Position numbers and translations under genes: made by a program. 26,576 nucleotides of DNA from a virus. Taxonomy: Duplodnaviria > Heunggongvirae > Uroviricota > Caudoviricetes. Shown here piece by piece: positions 498 through 26,576 of the stretch (positions within the stretch are counted from its first letter, which is position 1; every line of letters starts with the position of its first letter). The notes under the pieces are model-generated. The model did no database searches, was not told where the DNA came from, and worked only from the letters and a program-made list of their open reading frames with translations. The stretch is taken from IMG/VR virus record IMGVR_UViG_3300018475_000095; one strand, given 5' to 3'.

Positions 498-634
498 TGG
501 TGCAGATAATCGGAGTCGAACCGATACGATATTGCTACCGAGGGATTTTTGGTCTTCAACACGAGAATTGAACTCGTAACTTTCGTTCCTATATTGAAGA
601 AGTCCTTTGCGTCTACCTATTCCGCCATATCTGC
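498..634 (-). tRNA. tRNA-Leu, predicted anticodon TAA, interrupted by a 50-nt insertion at 550-599
   Basis: GCAGATA/TATCTGC acceptor stem, A73-CCA, Leu-type D arm GGCGGAATAGGTAGACGC, long variable arm, T arm ATCGG-TTCGACT-CCGAT. Removing 550-599 gives an 87-nt tRNA with loop CTTAAAA. Confidence 0.85.
550..599 (-). ncRNA. tRNA-like mini-element nested in the tRNA-Leu anticodon loop
   Basis: CTTCAAT/GTTGAAG acceptor-like stem plus A-CCA; perfect T arm ACGAG-TTCAATT-CTCGT; AAC-GAAA-GTT mini hairpin. Confidence 0.75.
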
Positions 635-836: not shown

Positions 837-955
837 AGGCAAGGGTTGGATTTGCACCAACGACCACGGGTTTAAAAGACCTTTTTAGAGTTGCAGTTAC
901 AAATCTTTTCTACAAGATTCAATTATTACGCGCTCTCCTGCTGAGCTACCTTGCC
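837..955 (-). tRNA. tRNA-Lys(TTT)-like gene with a 47-nt insertion (882-928) in the anticodon stem
   Basis: GGCAAGG/CCTTGCC acceptor stem, D arm GCTC-AGCAGGA-GAGC, T arm GTTGG-TGCAAAT-CCAAC. Removing 882-928 gives the perfect arm CGGGT-CTTTTAA-ACCCG. No encoded CCA. Confidence 0.65.
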
Positions 956-1019: not shown

Positions 1020-1085
1020 GGGATATAGTTGGAATCGAACCGACACTTCCCTTACTCAGGGCTCTTACCTTAAGATCTTATATCC
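1020..1085 (-). ncRNA. Short tRNA-like RNA (66 nt) with a truncated anticodon arm
   Basis: Perfect GGATATA/TATATCC acceptor stem, D-like TCTT-AAGGT-AAGA, short arm CCCT-GAGTA-AGGG, T arm GTCGG-TTCGATT-CCAAC. Confidence 0.65.
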
Positions 1086-1091
1086 GTATAC

Positions 1092-1112
1092 CCCAGTCTT
1101 TCCTGGGTGCCA
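1092..1112 (-). repeat. Leader hairpin motif TGRCA-stem-GAAAGA, copy 2
   Basis: TGGCA-CCCAG-GAAAGA-CTGGG, ending 6 nt before the tRNA-like 5' end at 1085. The stem covaries with copy 1. Confidence 0.65.
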
Positions 1113-4654: not shown

Positions 4655-5441
4655 CTATCTCTTTCCTTATTAAGTTATCTAAGCATTGTTTAATAGATTG
4701 TTCTAAGTCTAGACATTTAAATATCTTGTAATCATCGTTATTCTCATTAAACCAAGCTAAATAACATTTACCAATCTTTATACCTAATTTTCTTTGTAAA
4801 AGTTCTTTATAAATACCAAGTTGTATTGAATATTTATTTAACTCACAGTCATCTAGAAAATCAAACTCATCTAATAATTTCTGATATTTATTACTCGTTT
4901 TTATATCTTTATTAGTTTTATAATCCCATATCTGAAATTCTTGATCTTTAACATTCCAAGCTAATAAATCTATATTACCAGCTATTATATCTTCATATCC
5001 TACAGTAAACTCTGTTTTTATAGGTATCAGTTTATTATGAATATCTAAGAAGAATTTATCTTGTAAAGGTATTAGTTTTTCAAGTCTTCCTTTTATATCT
5101 GAAATATGTTCTAAATTTGCATAAGAACTATAATCAATATCAAATACTTTATTATTAGCAAGCTGCTCACTTCTTAAATGAAATAAAGTACCTACATCAC
5201 AAGATAACTTAGCAGCAATATCCCATTTTTTAAGAACTTCTTCTTGAGAAACTTTATCTCTCTTTGCAACGTAAGCACTCATATTTTCTTTATCGAATTC
5301 TATATGTTTTTGACTTACAAACTGTGTTACACTGCACTTTACTCTTTTATCTTTATAAGTGTAATAATGTTCTTTTTCATAAAAACAATAATCATTAAAA
5401 GAAGTGTTTAATTGAACTAAAATACTATCCTTCATAACCAT
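4635..5441 (-). CDS. PD-(D/E)XK exonuclease (RecB/Cas4-like)
   Basis: GTLFH, KTEF, AGNIDLL, WDYKTNK and YSIQLGIY motifs. Confidence 0.85.
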   Translation of the reverse strand: MVMKDSILVQLNTSFNDYCFYEKEHYYTYKDKRVKCSVTQFVSQKHIEFDKENMSAYVAKRDKVSQEEVLKKWDIAAKLSCDVGTLFHLRSEQLANNKVFDIDYSSYANLEHISDIKGRLEKLIPLQDKFFLDIHNKLIPIKTEFTVGYEDIIAGNIDLLAWNVKDQEFQIWDYKTNKDIKTSNKYQKLLDEFDFLDDCELNKYSIQLGIYKELLQRKLGIKIGKCYLAWFNENNDDYKIFKCLDLEQSIKQCLDNLIRKEIDGNNSN

Positions 5442-23326: not shown

Positions 23327-24451
23327 TTAACACATCAATGGGTCAAGTATTTCATGTAATTGCTCGATAGTGCTCTCAGTTCGCTCTTCGACTAAATCAT
23401 TGAATGCTTCTTCTTTAGATTTGCCGTTTTTTACTTTCTTATTAAACTCAGATTTAACTTGTTCCATAAAATCTGTTAAATACCAACAATCTTCAATCGT
23501 GGCATCACATTTCATTGGGCATGTACATTCTGGCTTTGCAGATTCAATCATTAAATAAGACAATCTATCAGCAACTTTTTCTGCATTCTCTTTAGGACAT
23601 TCTCCTATAAGCTCATCATGAACTGCTAGCAATAATCTAAATCCTAAATTTTTCAATTCAGTATCTCTATATACAGATATCATAGCTTTTTTCGACATTG
23701 TAGCAGCTCCACCTTGAACCCTAGCATTAACGGATTGTCTTTCAGCTTGAGCTATAAATCCACTGTTATCTGAAAGTGTTATATTTTCTTTAGCAGCTTG
23801 TACTTTCAATGATTCATACTCGCGCCTGTTTCGGCATTTACTTAAAGCTTCTCGATATTTTTTAATTAGAGCATCTTCTTCTGAATAATCTTTATTGCAT
23901 CCAATAAACGGATTTATATTACACTCTTCTTGTTTTGTAGTATATTTTATGGTGTATTTTGGGAGTAAAATATCCGGTAATCTTCTTCTTCTACCCCATA
24001 GATCCTCTACATATCCATTTTTTCGTGCATCCGATATTGTTTTATCAACCCAAGTCTTTACTTTAGGAAATCCATCGAAAAATTTGTCGATAATAGCTTG
24101 AGCTTCTTCAACAGTTTGATCAATCTGCTCAGCAACAGATGCTGCTCCACGTTGATACATAATACCAAGCACAATACTCTTACAAAAACCTCTTCGTTTC
24201 TTACCTTCAGGATTAGCAGTACCGTCTTGCCTAAATTCCATATTATCCCAATAATCGTTATTGTAAACTTTAGAAGCTACAGTTGCATATAAATCTTGCT
24301 TATTCATATACGCTTGCAGCATGTTTTCATCTCCAGAATAATGAGCTAGAAGGCGAGGCTCCTGCTGGGAAAAATCCGCACCGACCATCGTATACCCATC
24401 AGTAGCTTTGAACAGCATTCTTATTTCTTTGTTGTGACTTGGTATGTTTTG
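23327..24451 (-). CDS. polA: Family A DNA polymerase, exon 2
   Basis: QNIP, motif A ADFSQQEPR, motif B RGFCKSIVLGIMY, NARVQG, motif C VHDE. Confidence 0.93.
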   Translation of the reverse strand, partial: QNIPSHNKEIRMLFKATDGYTMVGADFSQQEPRLLAHYSGDENMLQAYMNKQDLYATVASKVYNNDYWDNMEFRQDGTANPEGKKRRGFCKSIVLGIMYQRGAASVAEQIDQTVEEAQAIIDKFFDGFPKVKTWVDKTISDARKNGYVEDLWGRRRRLPDILLPKYTIKYTTKQEECNINPFIGCNKDYSEEDALIKKYREALSKCRNRREYESLKVQAAKENITLSDNSGFIAQAERQSVNARVQGGAATMSKKAMISVYRDTELKNLGFRLLLAVHDELIGECPKENAEKVADRLSYLMIESAKPECTCPMKCDATIEDCWYLTDFMEQVKSEFNKKVKNGKSKEEAFNDLVEERTESTIEQLHEILDPLMC

Positions 24452-25700
24452 CAATATGTTATCGTCAAGCTCTTTATCTTGACCTCTATAGTTATTTGAT
24501 ATTTTACTATAGTTCAGACTATATCTTTAACTTTAAATAATTCTCATACTTTCTTTGTAATTTAAAACAATCATCTATCGAATATATCCAATCTAAAAAT
24601 TTTTTAGCTGTATTTCCATTTAAGCTTAAGTAAGGATATAATTTATTGTTTCTCTGTGTATAGTTTATTTTAATATTTAAATTTACATGATAATTTATAA
24701 TATCGATCAGGTGTTTTATAAATATCTCTGATGCAGTGCAAAGTGAGCAGCAATAGCGCTTTTTTGATATATATCCATCTCCATCAAAACACCCAAGCAA
24801 ATATGCTTTAATACAATTTTCTGATGGAAAATTACACCTAGGATTAACTGAAAAAGTTTTTGGACCATCTAATAAGTTAAAATTATCTATCAAAAACTTA
24901 TTTAACCCATTCGCTGATAATCTAAGGGAATATGTTTTTCCATATTTCTTTATATCGAAGGATGAATTATAATAAATCTTAATAGCTGTTAGTAAATCTA
25001 ACTCACTCTCCCCTGAAAGCCTAAGTTCTATAGCATTTGAATTTTTTGGTATGTATCCATCAGTAGCAGTTAATCCTACTAGATAATAGAGATGTGGATC
25101 ACTTAAATCATAAAGTTTAGAAGTATCTAGTTGATGCTTAAATTTTTTGATAAGTTTATATTTGCTACGCCTCCAATCTAATATACTCTCAGATATATTA
25201 TTTTCAACAGCTAATTGATGTATACTTTTGTTGGTATTAACCCAATTATCAATTAACCATTGCTTATCAATATCAGGTCGAATGCGTCTTGATAGATCTT
25301 CAATACCTTTTCTAGGACTAATTCTAGGGTATTTTAAATTAAAATTTATTAGTAATTTATTTAACTTATAAATCGATATATTTAAATGTTTACATAAATC
25401 TTTTTTACATCTAAATTTTAATATTAAATTTTGTATATCTTTTTTATTTAACATTTGATGCCTCCAATAAATTTAGCATCATATTTTATATAGTAAGTAT
25501 GAATTTTTTGAATTATTTAAAGTTATCGCGCGCTCGTGGATGAATTATTGATTTTATCTCTCATCATCTAGTCGTTGCTCCTTCAAAGGAATTTCTCCTA
25601 AGCTTGGATCAGGATTGTGGTAATAATTTATCAAACCATGTTCCCTGAGTTCACGCGAAGTTTACCTTACAATCACTTGCAAGGGCCTCCATATATTTTA
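24452..25700 (-). mobile_element. Group I intron (1249 nt, probably subgroup IA) in polA
   Basis: Splicing CCAAACCTT|...ATTG|CAAAAC restores SSDPNL-QNIP. The 5' exon U pairs with G in P1 (GGAGG guide) and the intron ends in G. R element GCAACGACTA (25569-25578), S element AAGATATAGTC (24517-24527), 13-bp P8 (25513-25525/24528-24540). Confidence 0.93.
24519..25454 (-). CDS. Intron-encoded LAGLIDADG homing endonuclease
   Basis: Two motifs, YYLVGLTATDGYI and AYLLGCFDGDGYI; N-terminal HTH-like segments; own GGAGG RBS; located in the P8 loop. Confidence 0.88.
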   Translation of the reverse strand: MLNKKDIQNLILKFRCKKDLCKHLNISIYKLNKLLINFNLKYPRISPRKGIEDLSRRIRPDIDKQWLIDNWVNTNKSIHQLAVENNISESILDWRRSKYKLIKKFKHQLDTSKLYDLSDPHLYYLVGLTATDGYIPKNSNAIELRLSGESELDLLTAIKIYYNSSFDIKKYGKTYSLRLSANGLNKFLIDNFNLLDGPKTFSVNPRCNFPSENCIKAYLLGCFDGDGYISKKRYCCSLCTASEIFIKHLIDIINYHVNLNIKINYTQRNNKLYPYLSLNGNTAKKFLDWIYSIDDCFKLQRKYENYLKLKI

Positions 25701-26576
25701 AAGGTTTGGATCACTCGAACTGAATCTTCCAGTACCAGCACCTAACTGATTAAAATGAGCATGTAATCTTTTAGTCAATGGATTAACAGCTTCTGGTAAT
25801 TTATCTATATATGTATTAATAAGCTTTGCTAAACCTCTTTTCTCTAATATAAGAGAACATATAGGTAAATTTATTTTTTCTAATATTGGTTCACCTGTCC
25901 CTCTTGGTGTTTTCTTGTCAATAACAGGTATCTTTAATATATCATATAATAGAATAGCTAATTGAGTAGGGCTAGTGATCTCTACTGGATCTTTAAGTTG
26001 TTCACCTTTAGTCTTAGCTACTTTACCATCTTTTGATTCTTTGCTCGGTATAAGAGCTTCTGGACTATTTCGCCAAGCATCAATCTGTGGCTTTAAGTTA
26101 AATAACTCCTCATTAATTTTTTCATCTATTACATCCATTTTTTTATGGTATTTCAAACTTAATAGTTTTGCATATTCTTGATCAATATCTACTCCAGAGA
26201 GCTCCATCTCAGCTGCAACTTCAACGATAGGCATCTCAATATTTAAAAATAAGTTATATAATTTTTCATGCTCTGGTCTTTCAAATATTTCTTTTTGCCA
26301 TTCATATAATTTGTAAGTCATATAAGCATCTGTAGCTGCGTATAACGCAAAGACTTCAGGATCTACTATAGCATATTCTACATTTTCAAATAAATGATCA
26401 ATAGAATATTTCTCAATACTTGGATCTAACTTATCTATATACTGCTGTTTCAATCCAGCAGATCTTTCATTCTCATCTAGGATTTTAGCTCCTATCATCG
26501 TATCCCAATAAACTTTAAGCTGCTTCTTTGTTGTGCATTTTATAACTTGATAGTCAAATTTACCGTTATGCATGAT
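25701..26576 (-). CDS. polA: Family A DNA polymerase, exon 1 (5' end outside the window)
   Basis: ExoII HNGKFD, ExoIII YAATDA, SPTQL and TGRFSSSDPNL motifs. Confidence 0.93.

What the first reader, a model, noticed from the sequence alone, without database searches (positions are those of the whole stretch)
498..634. A tRNA inside a tRNA: a 50-nt CCA-ending mini-tRNA interrupts the tRNA-Leu anticodon
Seen: the tRNA-Leu body is intact, but 550-599 (CTTCAAT-ATAGG-AACGAAAGTT-ACGAG-TTCAATT-CTCGT-GTTGAAG-A-CCA) sits in the anticodon loop. The insert folds into a 7-bp acceptor stem with discriminator and CCA, a perfect T arm, a GG-containing linker that could mimic the D-loop elbow contact, and a GNRA mini hairpin. 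Excising exactly from its first base to its CCA restores CT-TAA-AA, the anticodon that matches a Leu body. Known: acceptor stem plus T arm is the minimal RNase P substrate, and position 34/35 is where the cyanobacterial tRNA-Leu(UAA) group I intron sits, but 50 nt is far too short for a group I core. Inference: a tRNA-mimic intron removed by tRNA-processing nucleases and sealed by an RNA ligase, possibly hiding the anticodon from host anticodon nucleases or releasing a decoy RNA. A one-base shift of the junctions would give anticodon UCA (opal reader), which is relevant to the in-frame TGA codons.
Basis: partly seen in the sequence, partly recalled or inferred. Interest (0 to 1): 0.9.

Follow-up and report, generated by a model that had tools for sequence, protein, structure and literature searches.

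The report
tRNA-shaped mini-intron in phage tRNA-Leu
The only leucine tRNA gene for this gut phage's commonest leucine codon is split inside its anticodon by a conserved 50-base insert shaped like the top half of a tRNA; the shape suggests that ordinary tRNA-trimming enzymes cut it out and a ligase rejoins the tRNA, a splicing route never demonstrated.

Summary
Observation confirmed. On the minus strand, 634-498 is a type II tRNA-Leu gene whose anticodon loop holds a 50-nt insert (599-550). Removing exactly those bases restores the loop CUUAAAA, and ARAGORN then calls tRNA-Leu(UAA).

The insert is not a one-off. I found 36 distinct inserts of 44-67 nt in uncultured phage contigs. They split tRNA-Leu(UAA), Gln(UUG), Ile(UAU), Pro(UGG) and Glu(UUC) at 34/35, 35/36 or 36/37.

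All share tRNA geometry:
- a 7-bp closing stem;
- a 5-bp stem with a 7-nt loop abutting its 3' strand;
- one free base, then CCA (33 of 36; CAA in 3).

The last 28 nt are free of indels, like tRNA positions 49-76. Covariation is strong (98% paired, 11 of 12 pairs with double changes, 0 of 500 shuffles).

It is not a group I intron and not an archaeal bulge-helix-bulge intron. Splicing itself is untested, because no RNA run holds this phage. The mechanism (RNase P at the 5' end, a cut after CCA, then ligation) is inferred from the geometry. T4 Rnl1-type ligases are commoner in carrier phages (7/16 against 1/15). The opal (UCA) reading is not supported.

The closest published case is the 'enigmatic' Lak megaphage tRNA introns. 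This scan has noted the same design before in at least 13 other genomes.

The parts
498..634 (-). Interrupted tRNA-Leu(UAA) gene, type II with a long variable arm, 3' CCA encoded; 137 nt as encoded, 87 nt once the insert is removed
   Evidence: Rfam tRNA model 38.5 bits; ARAGORN calls tRNA-Leu(taa) after in-silico removal of 550-599
600..634 (-). 5' exon: acceptor 5' strand, D arm, anticodon-stem 5' strand, C32 U33 U34
   Evidence: Read; Rfam alignment
550..599 (-). 50-nt tRNA-shaped insert (candidate intron) between U34 and A35
   Evidence: other organisms' uninterrupted tRNA-Leu genes diverge exactly at 549/550
593..599 (-). Acceptor-like stem, 5' strand (CTTCAAT)
   Evidence: Pairs with 554-560; this helix covaries across the family: 7 of 7 pairs show double changes
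578..592 (-). Variable middle segment (15 nt) standing in for the D and anticodon arms; holds GG and a 3-bp GAAA hairpin
   Evidence: Read. Length and sequence vary across the family, and no consistent hairpin was established
561..577 (-). T-arm mimic: 5-bp stem ACGAG/CTCGT with the 7-nt loop TTCAATT, directly abutting the 3' strand of the acceptor-like stem
   Evidence: The stem covaries: 4 of 5 pairs show double changes, 100% paired. Ten of 36 family members have a T-loop-like loop
554..560 (-). Acceptor-like stem, 3' strand (GTTGAAG)
550..553 (-). Discriminator-like A plus CCA; its last base is the last base of the insert
   Evidence: Tails across the family: ACCA 25, GCCA 4, TCCA 3, CCCA 1, ACAA 3
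498..549 (-). 3' exon: A35 A36 A37 A38, anticodon-stem 3' strand, variable arm, T arm, acceptor 3' strand, A73, CCA

Best explanation
The 50 bases at 599-550 (minus strand) are one member of a family of small intervening sequences in the tRNA genes of large uncultured phages.

Each is a miniature tRNA 'top half':
- a 7-bp acceptor-like stem stacked on a 5-bp/7-nt T-arm-like hairpin;
- a short variable segment in place of the D and anticodon arms;
- a discriminator base and CCA.

It sits inside the anticodon, here between U34 and A35, so the primary transcript cannot decode.

Most likely route:
1. The cell's tRNA end-maturation machinery treats the inner unit as a tRNA.
2. RNase P cuts at the unit's first base, leaving U34 with a 3'-OH.
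3. An endonuclease that defines tRNA 3' ends cuts right after CCA, leaving a 5'-phosphate on A35. RNase Z/BN is the candidate, since it is reported in some bacteria to cut after an encoded CCA (my recollection); RNase E is the alternative.
4. The two halves stay together through the cloverleaf.
5. An ATP-dependent RNA ligase seals the nick in the anticodon loop.
6. The products are tRNA-Leu(UAA) and a free 50-nt CCA-ended mini-tRNA.

Shown: the element's anatomy, its conservation and covariation, and the exact restoration of the anticodon loop.

Inferred: that it is removed at the RNA level, which enzymes do it, and any function of the released RNA.
For: 1. Both boundaries coincide with the mature ends of the inner tRNA-like unit, not with any exon sequence.
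- The first exon-2 base is A, G, T or C, depending on the host tRNA.
- When the unit sits one or two bases further 3' (35/36, 36/37), it still starts at its stem and ends in N-CCA, and the 7-nt loop is still restored.

2. The geometry is that of a tRNA.
- The last 28 nt (5 + 7 + 5 + 7 + 1 + 3) are free of indels in all 26 Leu inserts.
- The closing stem has 7 paired layers in 24 of 36 and 6 in 11. The T-like stem has 5 paired layers in 29 of 36.
- This is the 12-bp acceptor/T minihelix known as the minimal RNase P substrate (established knowledge).

3. Only shape is conserved.
- There are 22 different closing-stem hexamers among 26 units and 17 different hairpin loops, with strong covariation.
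- That argues for a shape-reading enzyme rather than a catalytic RNA core.

4. The exons are under selection as a tRNA. ARAGORN calls tRNA-Leu(taa) in all 25 complete genes after removal; the 26th is cut by a contig end.

5. The tRNA is needed.
- In two complete carrier genomes the interrupted gene is the only tRNA-Leu(UAA).
- TTA is 62% of Leu codons in the window.

6. Ligases.
- T4 Rnl1-type ligase, the enzyme that seals anticodon-loop nicks, is present in 7 of 16 carrier contigs. It is in 1 of 15 size-matched phages with an uninterrupted tRNA-Leu(UAA) (Fisher p = 0.04, not corrected for relatedness).
- G006, and probably G002 (the window's close relative), carry an Rnl5-like candidate.

7. 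Other routes lack their enzymes in the carriers: RtcB 0 of 16, archaeal splicing endonuclease 0 of 16.
Against: - There is no RNA evidence of any kind: spliced product, free insert or cleaved halves.
- In many bacteria the 3' ends of CCA-encoding precursors are made by exonucleases, which could not release an intact 3' exon. An exact endonucleolytic cut after CCA is known to me for only a few RNase Z enzymes.
- RNase Z is not phage-encoded (0 of 16 over cut-off), so this step would depend on an unidentified host.
- The ligase link is weak. Rnl2-type ligases are no commoner in carriers (7/16) than in controls (5/15).
- One complete carrier (G004) has no recognisable RNA ligase.
- Contigs are related to each other, so the counts are not independent.
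- Twenty-six of 36 hairpin loops (the GGCAGCA type and its relatives) do not fit the T-loop consensus. Three tails are CAA.
- The window itself shows no ligase. It is a 26.6-kb fragment.
Confidence: 0.5

Rival explanations
1. It is a real intron, but a dedicated and still unrecognised endonuclease (phage or host) reads the tRNA-like shape and cuts it out. The cut leaves 2',3'-cyclic phosphate and 5'-OH ends. These are healed and sealed as in T4 tRNA repair (a kinase/phosphatase or HD-type phosphoesterase plus Rnl1), or joined by host RtcB.
For: - In two carriers the Rnl1-type gene lies two genes from an HD-domain protein.
- Rnl1 is known from T4 as part of a heal-and-seal pathway (established knowledge).
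- A precise cut after CCA is not a general activity of bacterial 3'-end nucleases.
- Many genes in these phages have no assigned function.
Against: - No candidate nuclease was identified.
- RtcB and the archaeal splicing endonuclease are absent from all 16 carrier contigs.
- The boundaries fall exactly at the two positions where known tRNA-maturation enzymes act. A new enzyme is therefore not required to explain the anatomy.
Confidence: 0.2
2. It is processed but not spliced. RNase P and 3' nucleases release the CCA-ended mini-tRNA and two tRNA halves, and these are the functional products. They could act as a decoy or competitor for enzymes and toxins that act on acceptor ends or anticodon loops, or as regulatory halves. 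The host 'tRNA' would be only a carrier scaffold.
For: - The insert's own structure and CCA are conserved by selection.
- Some complete carriers lack a recognisable ligase (G004).
- The same window holds other tRNA-like genes with altered anticodon arms.
Against: - The exons keep every feature of a working tRNA-Leu.
- The two exon ends always add up to a canonical 7-nt loop with a sense anticodon, even when the junction slides by one or two bases. A mere scaffold would have no need to keep that.
- In G004 and G006 the interrupted gene is the only tRNA-Leu(UAA).
- In the window TTA is the dominant Leu codon.
Confidence: 0.17
3. It is a selfish tRNA-derived DNA insertion that has simply inactivated the gene, leaving a pseudogene with nothing removed at the RNA level.
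For: - Inserts of one type occur in different tRNA genes, and closely similar tRNA-Leu genes exist with and without an insert. L015 and L103 share 80 of 87 positions. This fits a mobile element.
Against: - Twenty-five of 25 complete interrupted genes keep intact cloverleaf exons across deep sequence divergence.
- The insert keeps its structure through compensatory changes.
- There are no decayed copies among the 36.
- The insert is unchanged in four samples.
Confidence: 0.06
4. It is a self-splicing or self-cleaving RNA: a degenerate group I intron or a small ribozyme.
For: - It occupies the same CUU/AAAA site as the classical tRNA-Leu(UAA) group I intron (Williams 2020, bioRxiv 10.1101/2020.01.27.920355).
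- Long group-I-like introns occur at that site in other phage tRNA-Leu genes.
Against: - It is 44-67 nt long.
- Every one of the 36 ends in A rather than the omega G.
- There is no Rfam match to any intron or ribozyme family even at E = 10.
- No sequence core is conserved across the family; only helices are.
Confidence: 0.03
5. It is an archaeal-type intron removed by a bulge-helix-bulge splicing endonuclease, which would make the window an archaeal virus.
For: - Archaeal tRNA introns are small and occur at non-canonical positions (PMC4090602, listed).
Against: - The junctions do not lie in two 3-nt bulges separated by 4 bp.
- The 5' junction is at the base of an uninterrupted 7-bp helix. The 3' junction lies 4 nt beyond that helix, in a 3-by-8 internal loop.
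- The splicing endonuclease family is absent from all 16 carrier contigs.
- The replication genes in the window are of bacterial type: beta clamp, DnaX-like loader, family A polymerase.
Confidence: 0.01

Closest known systems
'Enigmatic' tRNA introns of Lak megaphages (Devoto et al. 2019, Nat Microbiol, PMC6784885; main text, Fig. 4 legend and Table S6)
   Same: - Phage tRNA genes are interrupted in the anticodon loop by short, conserved inserts of unknown splicing mechanism.
- The authors noted that one intron 'itself may encode a tRNA'.
- In the Tyr and Phe introns printed in Table S6, I can read an acceptor-like stem plus a T arm with a TTCGA-type loop at the 3' end of the intron, a few bases before exon 2.
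   Different: - Lak introns are longer (79-114 nt) and have about 26 nt ahead of the tRNA-like part.
- The two I read do not end in CCA.
- Boundaries were set by tRNAscan's eukaryotic 37/38 rule and then corrected by alignment.
- Here the whole insert is the mini-tRNA: it runs from its +1 base to its CCA, splits the anticodon triplet itself, and lacks an anticodon arm.
- I did not test homology between the two sets.
Group I intron of tRNA-Leu(UAA) in cyanobacteria, plastids and other bacteria ('Leu.3Ug', CUU/a...g/AAAA; Williams 2020, bioRxiv 10.1101/2020.01.27.920355)
   Same: - Same gene and same phosphodiester bond (U34/A35).
- U at the -1 position.
- Phage tRNA-Leu(UAA) genes in my sample also carry long introns of this kind (L018, L129, L159).
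   Different: [quoted passage not shown]
- This insert is 50 nt, ends in A, and has no core and no Rfam match.
tRNA-like RNAs released by tRNA end-processing enzymes, such as mascRNA cut from MALAT1 by RNase P and RNase Z (my recollection of the literature, not checked here), and acceptor/T-arm minihelix model substrates of RNase P
   Same: - A tRNA-shaped module embedded in a longer transcript defines its own 5' and 3' cleavage sites through tRNA geometry.
   Different: - Those cases release an RNA and do not rejoin the flanks.
- Here the flanks are the two halves of another tRNA and must be ligated to be of use.
- Nothing here is shown experimentally.
T4 tRNA anticodon-loop repair (PrrC nuclease countered by Pnkp and Rnl1; established knowledge)
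   Same: - A phage ligase seals a break in a tRNA anticodon loop next to U34.
- Rnl1-family genes are present in 7 of 16 carrier contigs.
   Different: - That pathway is damage repair after a host nuclease attack, not removal of an encoded insert.
- No Pnkp was sought or found here.

Membership tests
tRNA acceptor/T-arm 'top half' (minihelix; RNase P and CCA-end recognition module) | 7-bp acceptor stem | tested here: met
   Window: 599-593 pairs with 560-554, 7 of 7 layers. Family: 7 layers paired in 24 of 36 and 6 in 11. All 7 pairs show compensatory double changes.
tRNA acceptor/T-arm 'top half' (minihelix; RNase P and CCA-end recognition module) | 5-bp T stem and 7-nt loop, contiguous with the acceptor 3' strand (a 12-bp stack) | tested here: met
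   The last 28 nt align without a single indel in 26 of 26 Leu inserts. The stem has 5 of 5 layers paired in 29 of 36.
tRNA acceptor/T-arm 'top half' (minihelix; RNase P and CCA-end recognition module) | T-loop sequence consensus (U-N-C-R-A-N-N) | tested here: inconclusive
   Met in the window (TTCAATT) and 9 other inserts. The other 26 deviate, most of them GGCAGCA-type loops. Positions 3-4 are CA in 33 of 36.
tRNA acceptor/T-arm 'top half' (minihelix; RNase P and CCA-end recognition module) | Single discriminator base followed by CCA at the 3' end | tested here: met
   ACCA in the window. N-CCA in 33 of 36 and ACAA in 3. The discriminator is A in 28.
tRNA acceptor/T-arm 'top half' (minihelix; RNase P and CCA-end recognition module) | Cleavage by RNase P at +1 and 3'-end formation at CCA | not testable with these tools
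   Needs enzyme assays or RNA end mapping. No RNA run holds the phage.
Complete tRNA | D arm and anticodon arm with a 7-nt anticodon loop | tested here: not met
   Only 15 nt lie between the acceptor 5' strand and the T stem. ARAGORN and Rfam do not call the insert. The only trace is a weak antisense-tRNA-type hit, E = 0.9.
Group I intron | Catalytic core P3-P9 and a match to the Rfam group I intron model | tested here: not met
   The insert is 50 nt. There is no intron or ribozyme family even at E up to 10.
Group I intron | Terminal G (omega G) before the 3' splice site | tested here: not met
   All 36 inserts end in A.
Archaeal/eukaryal enzyme-spliced tRNA intron (bulge-helix-bulge) | Splice sites in two 3-nt bulges separated by a 4-bp helix | tested here: not met
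   The 5' site lies at the foot of a continuous 7-bp helix. The 3' site is 4 nt past that helix, in a 3-by-8 internal loop.
Archaeal/eukaryal enzyme-spliced tRNA intron (bulge-helix-bulge) | Splicing endonuclease (EndA/Sen, PF01974) available | tested here: not met
   Found in 0 of 16 carrier contigs. Among the control genomes it occurs only in the archaea. The host genome is unknown.
Lak-type 'enigmatic' phage tRNA introns (Devoto 2019) | Short conserved insert in the anticodon loop of a phage tRNA gene, with a tRNA-like fold in the insert and no known splicing signal | tested here: met
   for this family; for Lak. Sequence homology between the two sets was not tested.

The most novel reading that the evidence does not exclude
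These inserts are a new class of tRNA intron, spliced by the tRNA end-maturation machinery itself. RNase P makes the 5' cut, a CCA-end nuclease makes the 3' cut, and an ATP-dependent RNA ligase rejoins the anticodon loop. Each splicing event also releases a CCA-ended mini-tRNA with a role of its own, for example as a decoy for acceptor-end or anticodon-directed host toxins. The elements also move between tRNA genes: the same insert type occurs in Leu, Gln, Ile, Pro and Glu tRNAs.
Probability: 0.35. Interest if true: 0.92.

Novelty: new variant of a known kind. Interest (0 to 1): 0.78.

Why it matters
Two routes of tRNA intron removal are established: self-splicing group I introns in bacteria and organelles, and protein endonuclease plus ligase in archaea and eukaryotes.

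A conserved, covarying, CCA-ended mini-tRNA that splits the anticodon of phage tRNAs fits neither route. It implies a third: splicing by enzymes that normally only trim tRNA ends. It would also give bacterial and phage RNA ligases a routine substrate.

The idea is directly testable with a 137-nt transcript and commercially available enzymes.

There is a practical consequence too. Standard tRNA finders miss these genes: ARAGORN found 1 of the 3 tRNA genes that Rfam calls above threshold in this window, and a fourth tRNA-like sequence falls just below threshold. Phage tRNA repertoires, codon-usage arguments and genetic-code predictions for large gut phages are therefore systematically incomplete.

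Tried and rejected
- **RNA evidence.** The look-up of sequencing runs listed no RNA holder, only faecal and gut DNA metagenomes, so expression and splicing could not be examined. Laying DNA contigs showed no insert-free allele of this phage in four runs.
- **Annotated phage records.** A blastn search found only the neighbouring tRNA-Asn. An exact 25-mer of the 3' exon found nothing in IMG/VR.
- **Bacterial genomes.** My pattern was flooded by ordinary tRNA-Leu genes whose 3' CCA is followed by an A-rich terminator. None of the distinct matches I read from the fetched loci (scan stopped at 120 stretches) was a true insert, so I can say nothing about bacterial chromosomes. The metagenome scan had the same problem but still gave nine more true members.
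- **Thermodynamic folding alone.** It does not favour the tRNA-like fold. That fold is part of the minimum-energy structure in only 7 of 26 units. An alternative GUG/CAC pairing in the GGCAGCA subgroup shows no covariation beyond three invariant pairs, so I dropped it.
- **A conserved small hairpin in the middle segment.** Automatic picking gave inconsistent registers, so I make no claim.
- **U34 specificity.** I dropped this as not significant.
- **Covariance model R1.** It recovered the GGCAGCA-type Leu inserts and one Gln insert but missed the 35/36 subgroup. A structure descriptor written in Python reached further; its first two versions were far too permissive.
- **Enzyme families.** Phage-encoded RtcB, EndA and RNase Z were absent. 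Rnl2-type ligases are not enriched.
- **Opal-suppressor reading (UCA).** Rejected on the family evidence.
Full report
**What is in the window.**
- The window is an AT-rich (28.9% G+C) phage replication module, with every gene on the minus strand. It encodes a family A DNA polymerase split by a LAGLIDADG open reading frame, a beta-clamp-like protein, clamp-loader subunits, a RecA/UvsX-like protein and SbcCD.
- A cluster of tRNA genes lies at its downstream end.
- ARAGORN finds only tRNA-Asn. Rfam's tRNA model also matches 634-501 (38.5 bits) and 955-837 (40.6 bits), each with a long unaligned block in the anticodon arm.
- The finding concerns the first of these two.

**Checking the observation.**
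- Read on the minus strand, 634-498 is a type II tRNA. It has a 7-bp acceptor stem, a D arm, an anticodon stem, a 4-bp variable arm with a GCAA loop, a T arm, A73 and an encoded CCA.
- Fifty bases lie between C32-U33-U34 (ending at 600) and four A residues (starting at 549).
CTTCAAT pairs with GTTGAAG (7 bp). A 15-nt middle segment follows. ACGAG/CTCGT closes the loop TTCAATT and abuts the 3' strand of the 7-bp stem. Then come A and CCA.
- Removing 599-550 leaves the loop CUUAAAA, and ARAGORN then calls tRNA-Leu(taa).
- One caveat: the isolated insert's minimum-energy fold is a long imperfect hairpin (-11.0 kcal/mol, z = -1.7). The tRNA-like fold scores -10.0. Thermodynamics alone does not decide between them.

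**Relatives.**
- A RecA-based search found a 205-kb IMG/VR contig (G002) whose RecA-like protein is 82% identical.
- Its tRNA-Leu gene carries a 51-nt insert at the same bond. The sequence is quite different but the plan is the same.
- Pattern scans of IMG/VR and of metagenome contigs showed two things. Most phage tRNA-Leu(UAA) genes are uninterrupted. Twenty-six distinct genes carry a 46-57-nt insert of this plan.
- In 20 of them the unit sits between 34 and 35.
- In the other six the insert starts one base later and only three A residues follow it. The unit sits at 35/36 and still runs from the first base of its stem to N-CCA.
- That sliding junction shows the unit is a discrete entity. It also shows that what is conserved is the restored 7-nt loop.

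**Structure and covariation.**
- In a MAFFT alignment the last 28 columns contain no gap in any of the 26 sequences. They hold a 5-nt stem strand, a 7-nt loop, a 5-nt stem strand, 7 nt of closing-stem 3' strand, one base and CCA. This is the length pattern of tRNA positions 49-76.
- On a 16-sequence alignment with the two helices specified, 98.4% of cells form standard pairs and 11 of 12 pairs show changes on both sides. No shuffle out of 500 reaches the observed values, and sliding the partners by 1-3 columns drops pairing to 30-44%.
- The 5' strand of one unit pairs fully with the 3' strand of another in only 34 of 650 combinations. Within the same unit the figure is 23 of 26.
- The middle segment varies in length and sequence. 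I could not establish a conserved hairpin there.

**The same element in other tRNAs.**
- Covariance model R1 found a second copy in the complete genome G006, 2.4 kb from the Leu copy. It splits tRNA-Gln(UUG) between positions 35 and 36.
- A structure descriptor run over all held loci found further units in Ile(UAU), Gln(UUG), Pro(UGG) and Glu(UUC) genes, at 34/35, 35/36 or 36/37. One more Ile(UAU) unit came from ARAGORN's intron mode.
- In all I count 36 distinct units of 44-67 nt. Tails are ACCA 25, GCCA 4, TCCA 3, CCCA 1 and ACAA 3. The first base is G in 23, C in 12 and A in 1.
- The first base of exon 2 is A, G, T or C, so exon sequence does not define the 3' boundary.
- Ten units, including the window's, have a T-loop-like hairpin loop. 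The rest, mostly in Leu genes, have GGCAGCA or near variants.
- Both loop types occur in more than one kind of tRNA, which suggests movement between tRNA genes.
- A 67-nt unit in a Gln gene even keeps a D-arm-like stretch. This suggests the units are reduced tRNAs.

**Are the interrupted genes meant to work?**
- All 25 complete Leu genes are called as tRNA-Leu(taa) once the unit is removed.
- G004 and G006, complete genomes with terminal repeats, have no second tRNA-Leu(UAA). G006 has no other tRNA-Gln(UUG).
- In the window TTA is 62% of Leu codons, 478 of 776.
- Contigs from three other faecal samples carry the insert without a single difference. Other organisms' uninterrupted tRNA-Leu genes stop matching exactly at 549/550.
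- These points argue against a dead gene.

**How it might be removed.**
- It is not a group I intron. It is 50 nt long, all 36 units end in A, no Rfam family matches even at E = 10, and no sequence core is conserved.
- It is not a bulge-helix-bulge intron. The junctions lie at the foot of a continuous 7-bp helix and 4 nt beyond it. The splicing endonuclease family is absent from all 16 carrier contigs.
- What the family conserves is exactly what tRNA end-maturation enzymes read: a 12-bp acceptor/T stack, a discriminator and CCA. Both boundaries are the mature ends of that inner unit.
- The 3' cut is the weakest step. I recall exact cleavage after an encoded CCA for RNase Z of Thermotoga and for E. 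coli RNase BN, but I did not check this here. RNase Z is not phage-encoded.

**Ligases.**
- RtcB is absent from all 16 carrier contigs.
- T4 Rnl1-type ligase is present in 7 of 16 carriers and in 1 of 15 size-matched phages with an uninterrupted tRNA-Leu(UAA) (Fisher p = 0.04). The contigs are related to each other, so this is only suggestive.
- Rnl2-type ligases show no difference: 7/16 against 5/15.
- G006 has a 492-aa protein with an N-terminal OB domain and a ligase nucleotidyltransferase domain. It weakly resembles the Naegleria RNA ligase. G002 has a similar open frame.
- G004 has no recognisable RNA ligase.

**The opal idea.**
- Shifting both junctions by one base would give UCA in this copy only because the unit starts with C.
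- Twenty-three of the 36 units start with G, and the 35/36 and 36/37 variants restore sense anticodons. The family evidence is therefore against it.
- The window does lack TGA stops, 0 of 34 open reading frames. If TGA is recoded, the suppressor tRNA has to be sought elsewhere in the genome.

**What is known.**
- Devoto et al. 2019 (PMC6784885) reported 'enigmatic' introns in Lak megaphage tRNAs. They noted that one may itself encode a tRNA, and they said they knew of no earlier report of introns in phage tRNAs.
- In their Table S6 the Tyr and Phe introns end with an acceptor-like stem and a T arm shortly before exon 2.
- Those introns are longer, have a 5' leader and do not end in CCA.
- Eight literature searches found no description of CCA-ended minihelix introns and no test of the RNase P/ligase idea.
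- Williams 2020 maps group I introns at the same CUU/AAAA site.
- Earlier notes of this scan describe the same design in at least 13 other genomes, with the same reading. I treat them as leads, not support. One of them, with an Asn host, made me drop the idea that U34 is required.

**Verdict.**
The mechanism is plausible but wholly inferred. The opal aside is not supported.
- The published precedent (Lak) makes this a new variant of a known but unexplained kind.

Noticed in passing
window 837-955 (- strand); insert 882-928: A tRNA-Lys(UUU)-like gene carries a 47-nt insert between positions 28 and 29, in the anticodon stem. Removing it gives a perfect 5-bp stem and the loop CTTTTAA. The insert is not tRNA-shaped and has no CCA. 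Homologous inserts sit at the same 28/29 site in tRNA-Asn(GUU)-like genes of G004 (L454:14019-14137) and G006 (L448:1426-1545); they start TAATAA and share an AAC[A/T]GCAA block. This is a second conserved insert family.
   Followed up: partly
window 1020-1085 (- strand): A 66-nt tRNA-like sequence has a good acceptor stem and T arm but only a 3-4-bp anticodon arm. Rfam's tRNA model scores it 25.6 bits, just under threshold.
   Followed up: no
window about 956-985 and 1086-1112 (- strand); L003:996-1035: A shared leader lies a few bases upstream of the two odd tRNA genes: TGRCA followed by a small hairpin with a GAAAGA-like loop. It recurs upstream of an odd tRNA in the related phage G002.
   Followed up: no
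window 23327-26573 (- strand): The family A DNA polymerase gene is in two pieces. The Pfam profile breaks at position 128. The pieces are separated by a LAGLIDADG homing-endonuclease open reading frame (24519-25454), presumably in an intron or intein.
   Followed up: no
window, all 34 listed ORFs: No open reading frame ends in TGA (TAA 23, TAG 11).
   Followed up: partly
G006 (L440, L447, L448; G006:117021-119579): One complete 166-kb phage genome has three tRNA-shaped inserts: Leu(UAA), Gln(UUG) at 35/36, and Ile(UAU) with a 73-nt unit ending in ACAA. It also has one type B insert. ARAGORN's intron mode finds these genes but assigns the wrong anticodon to several.
   Followed up: partly
L426:2825-3538 and L427:2945-3541: In two carrier phages the T4 Rnl1-like ligase gene lies two genes from an HD-domain protein. 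This may be an RNA end-healing partner.
   Followed up: no
L170 (IMGVR_UViG_3300029305_007152), minus strand near 4833-4922: A phage tRNA-Leu(UAA) gene has a different insert of about 80 nt at the same site. It is neither tRNA-shaped nor obviously group I.
   Followed up: no
L003:1381-1404: Just upstream of the interrupted tRNA-Leu of G002 lies a stretch that looks like a partial copy of a tRNA-Leu 5' half, acceptor strand plus D arm.
   Followed up: no
run X1, loose end at window 553: The same faecal sample holds a second phage. Its tRNA-Leu carries an L015-type insert; the contig matches exon 2 plus the ACCA tail and then diverges.
   Followed up: no
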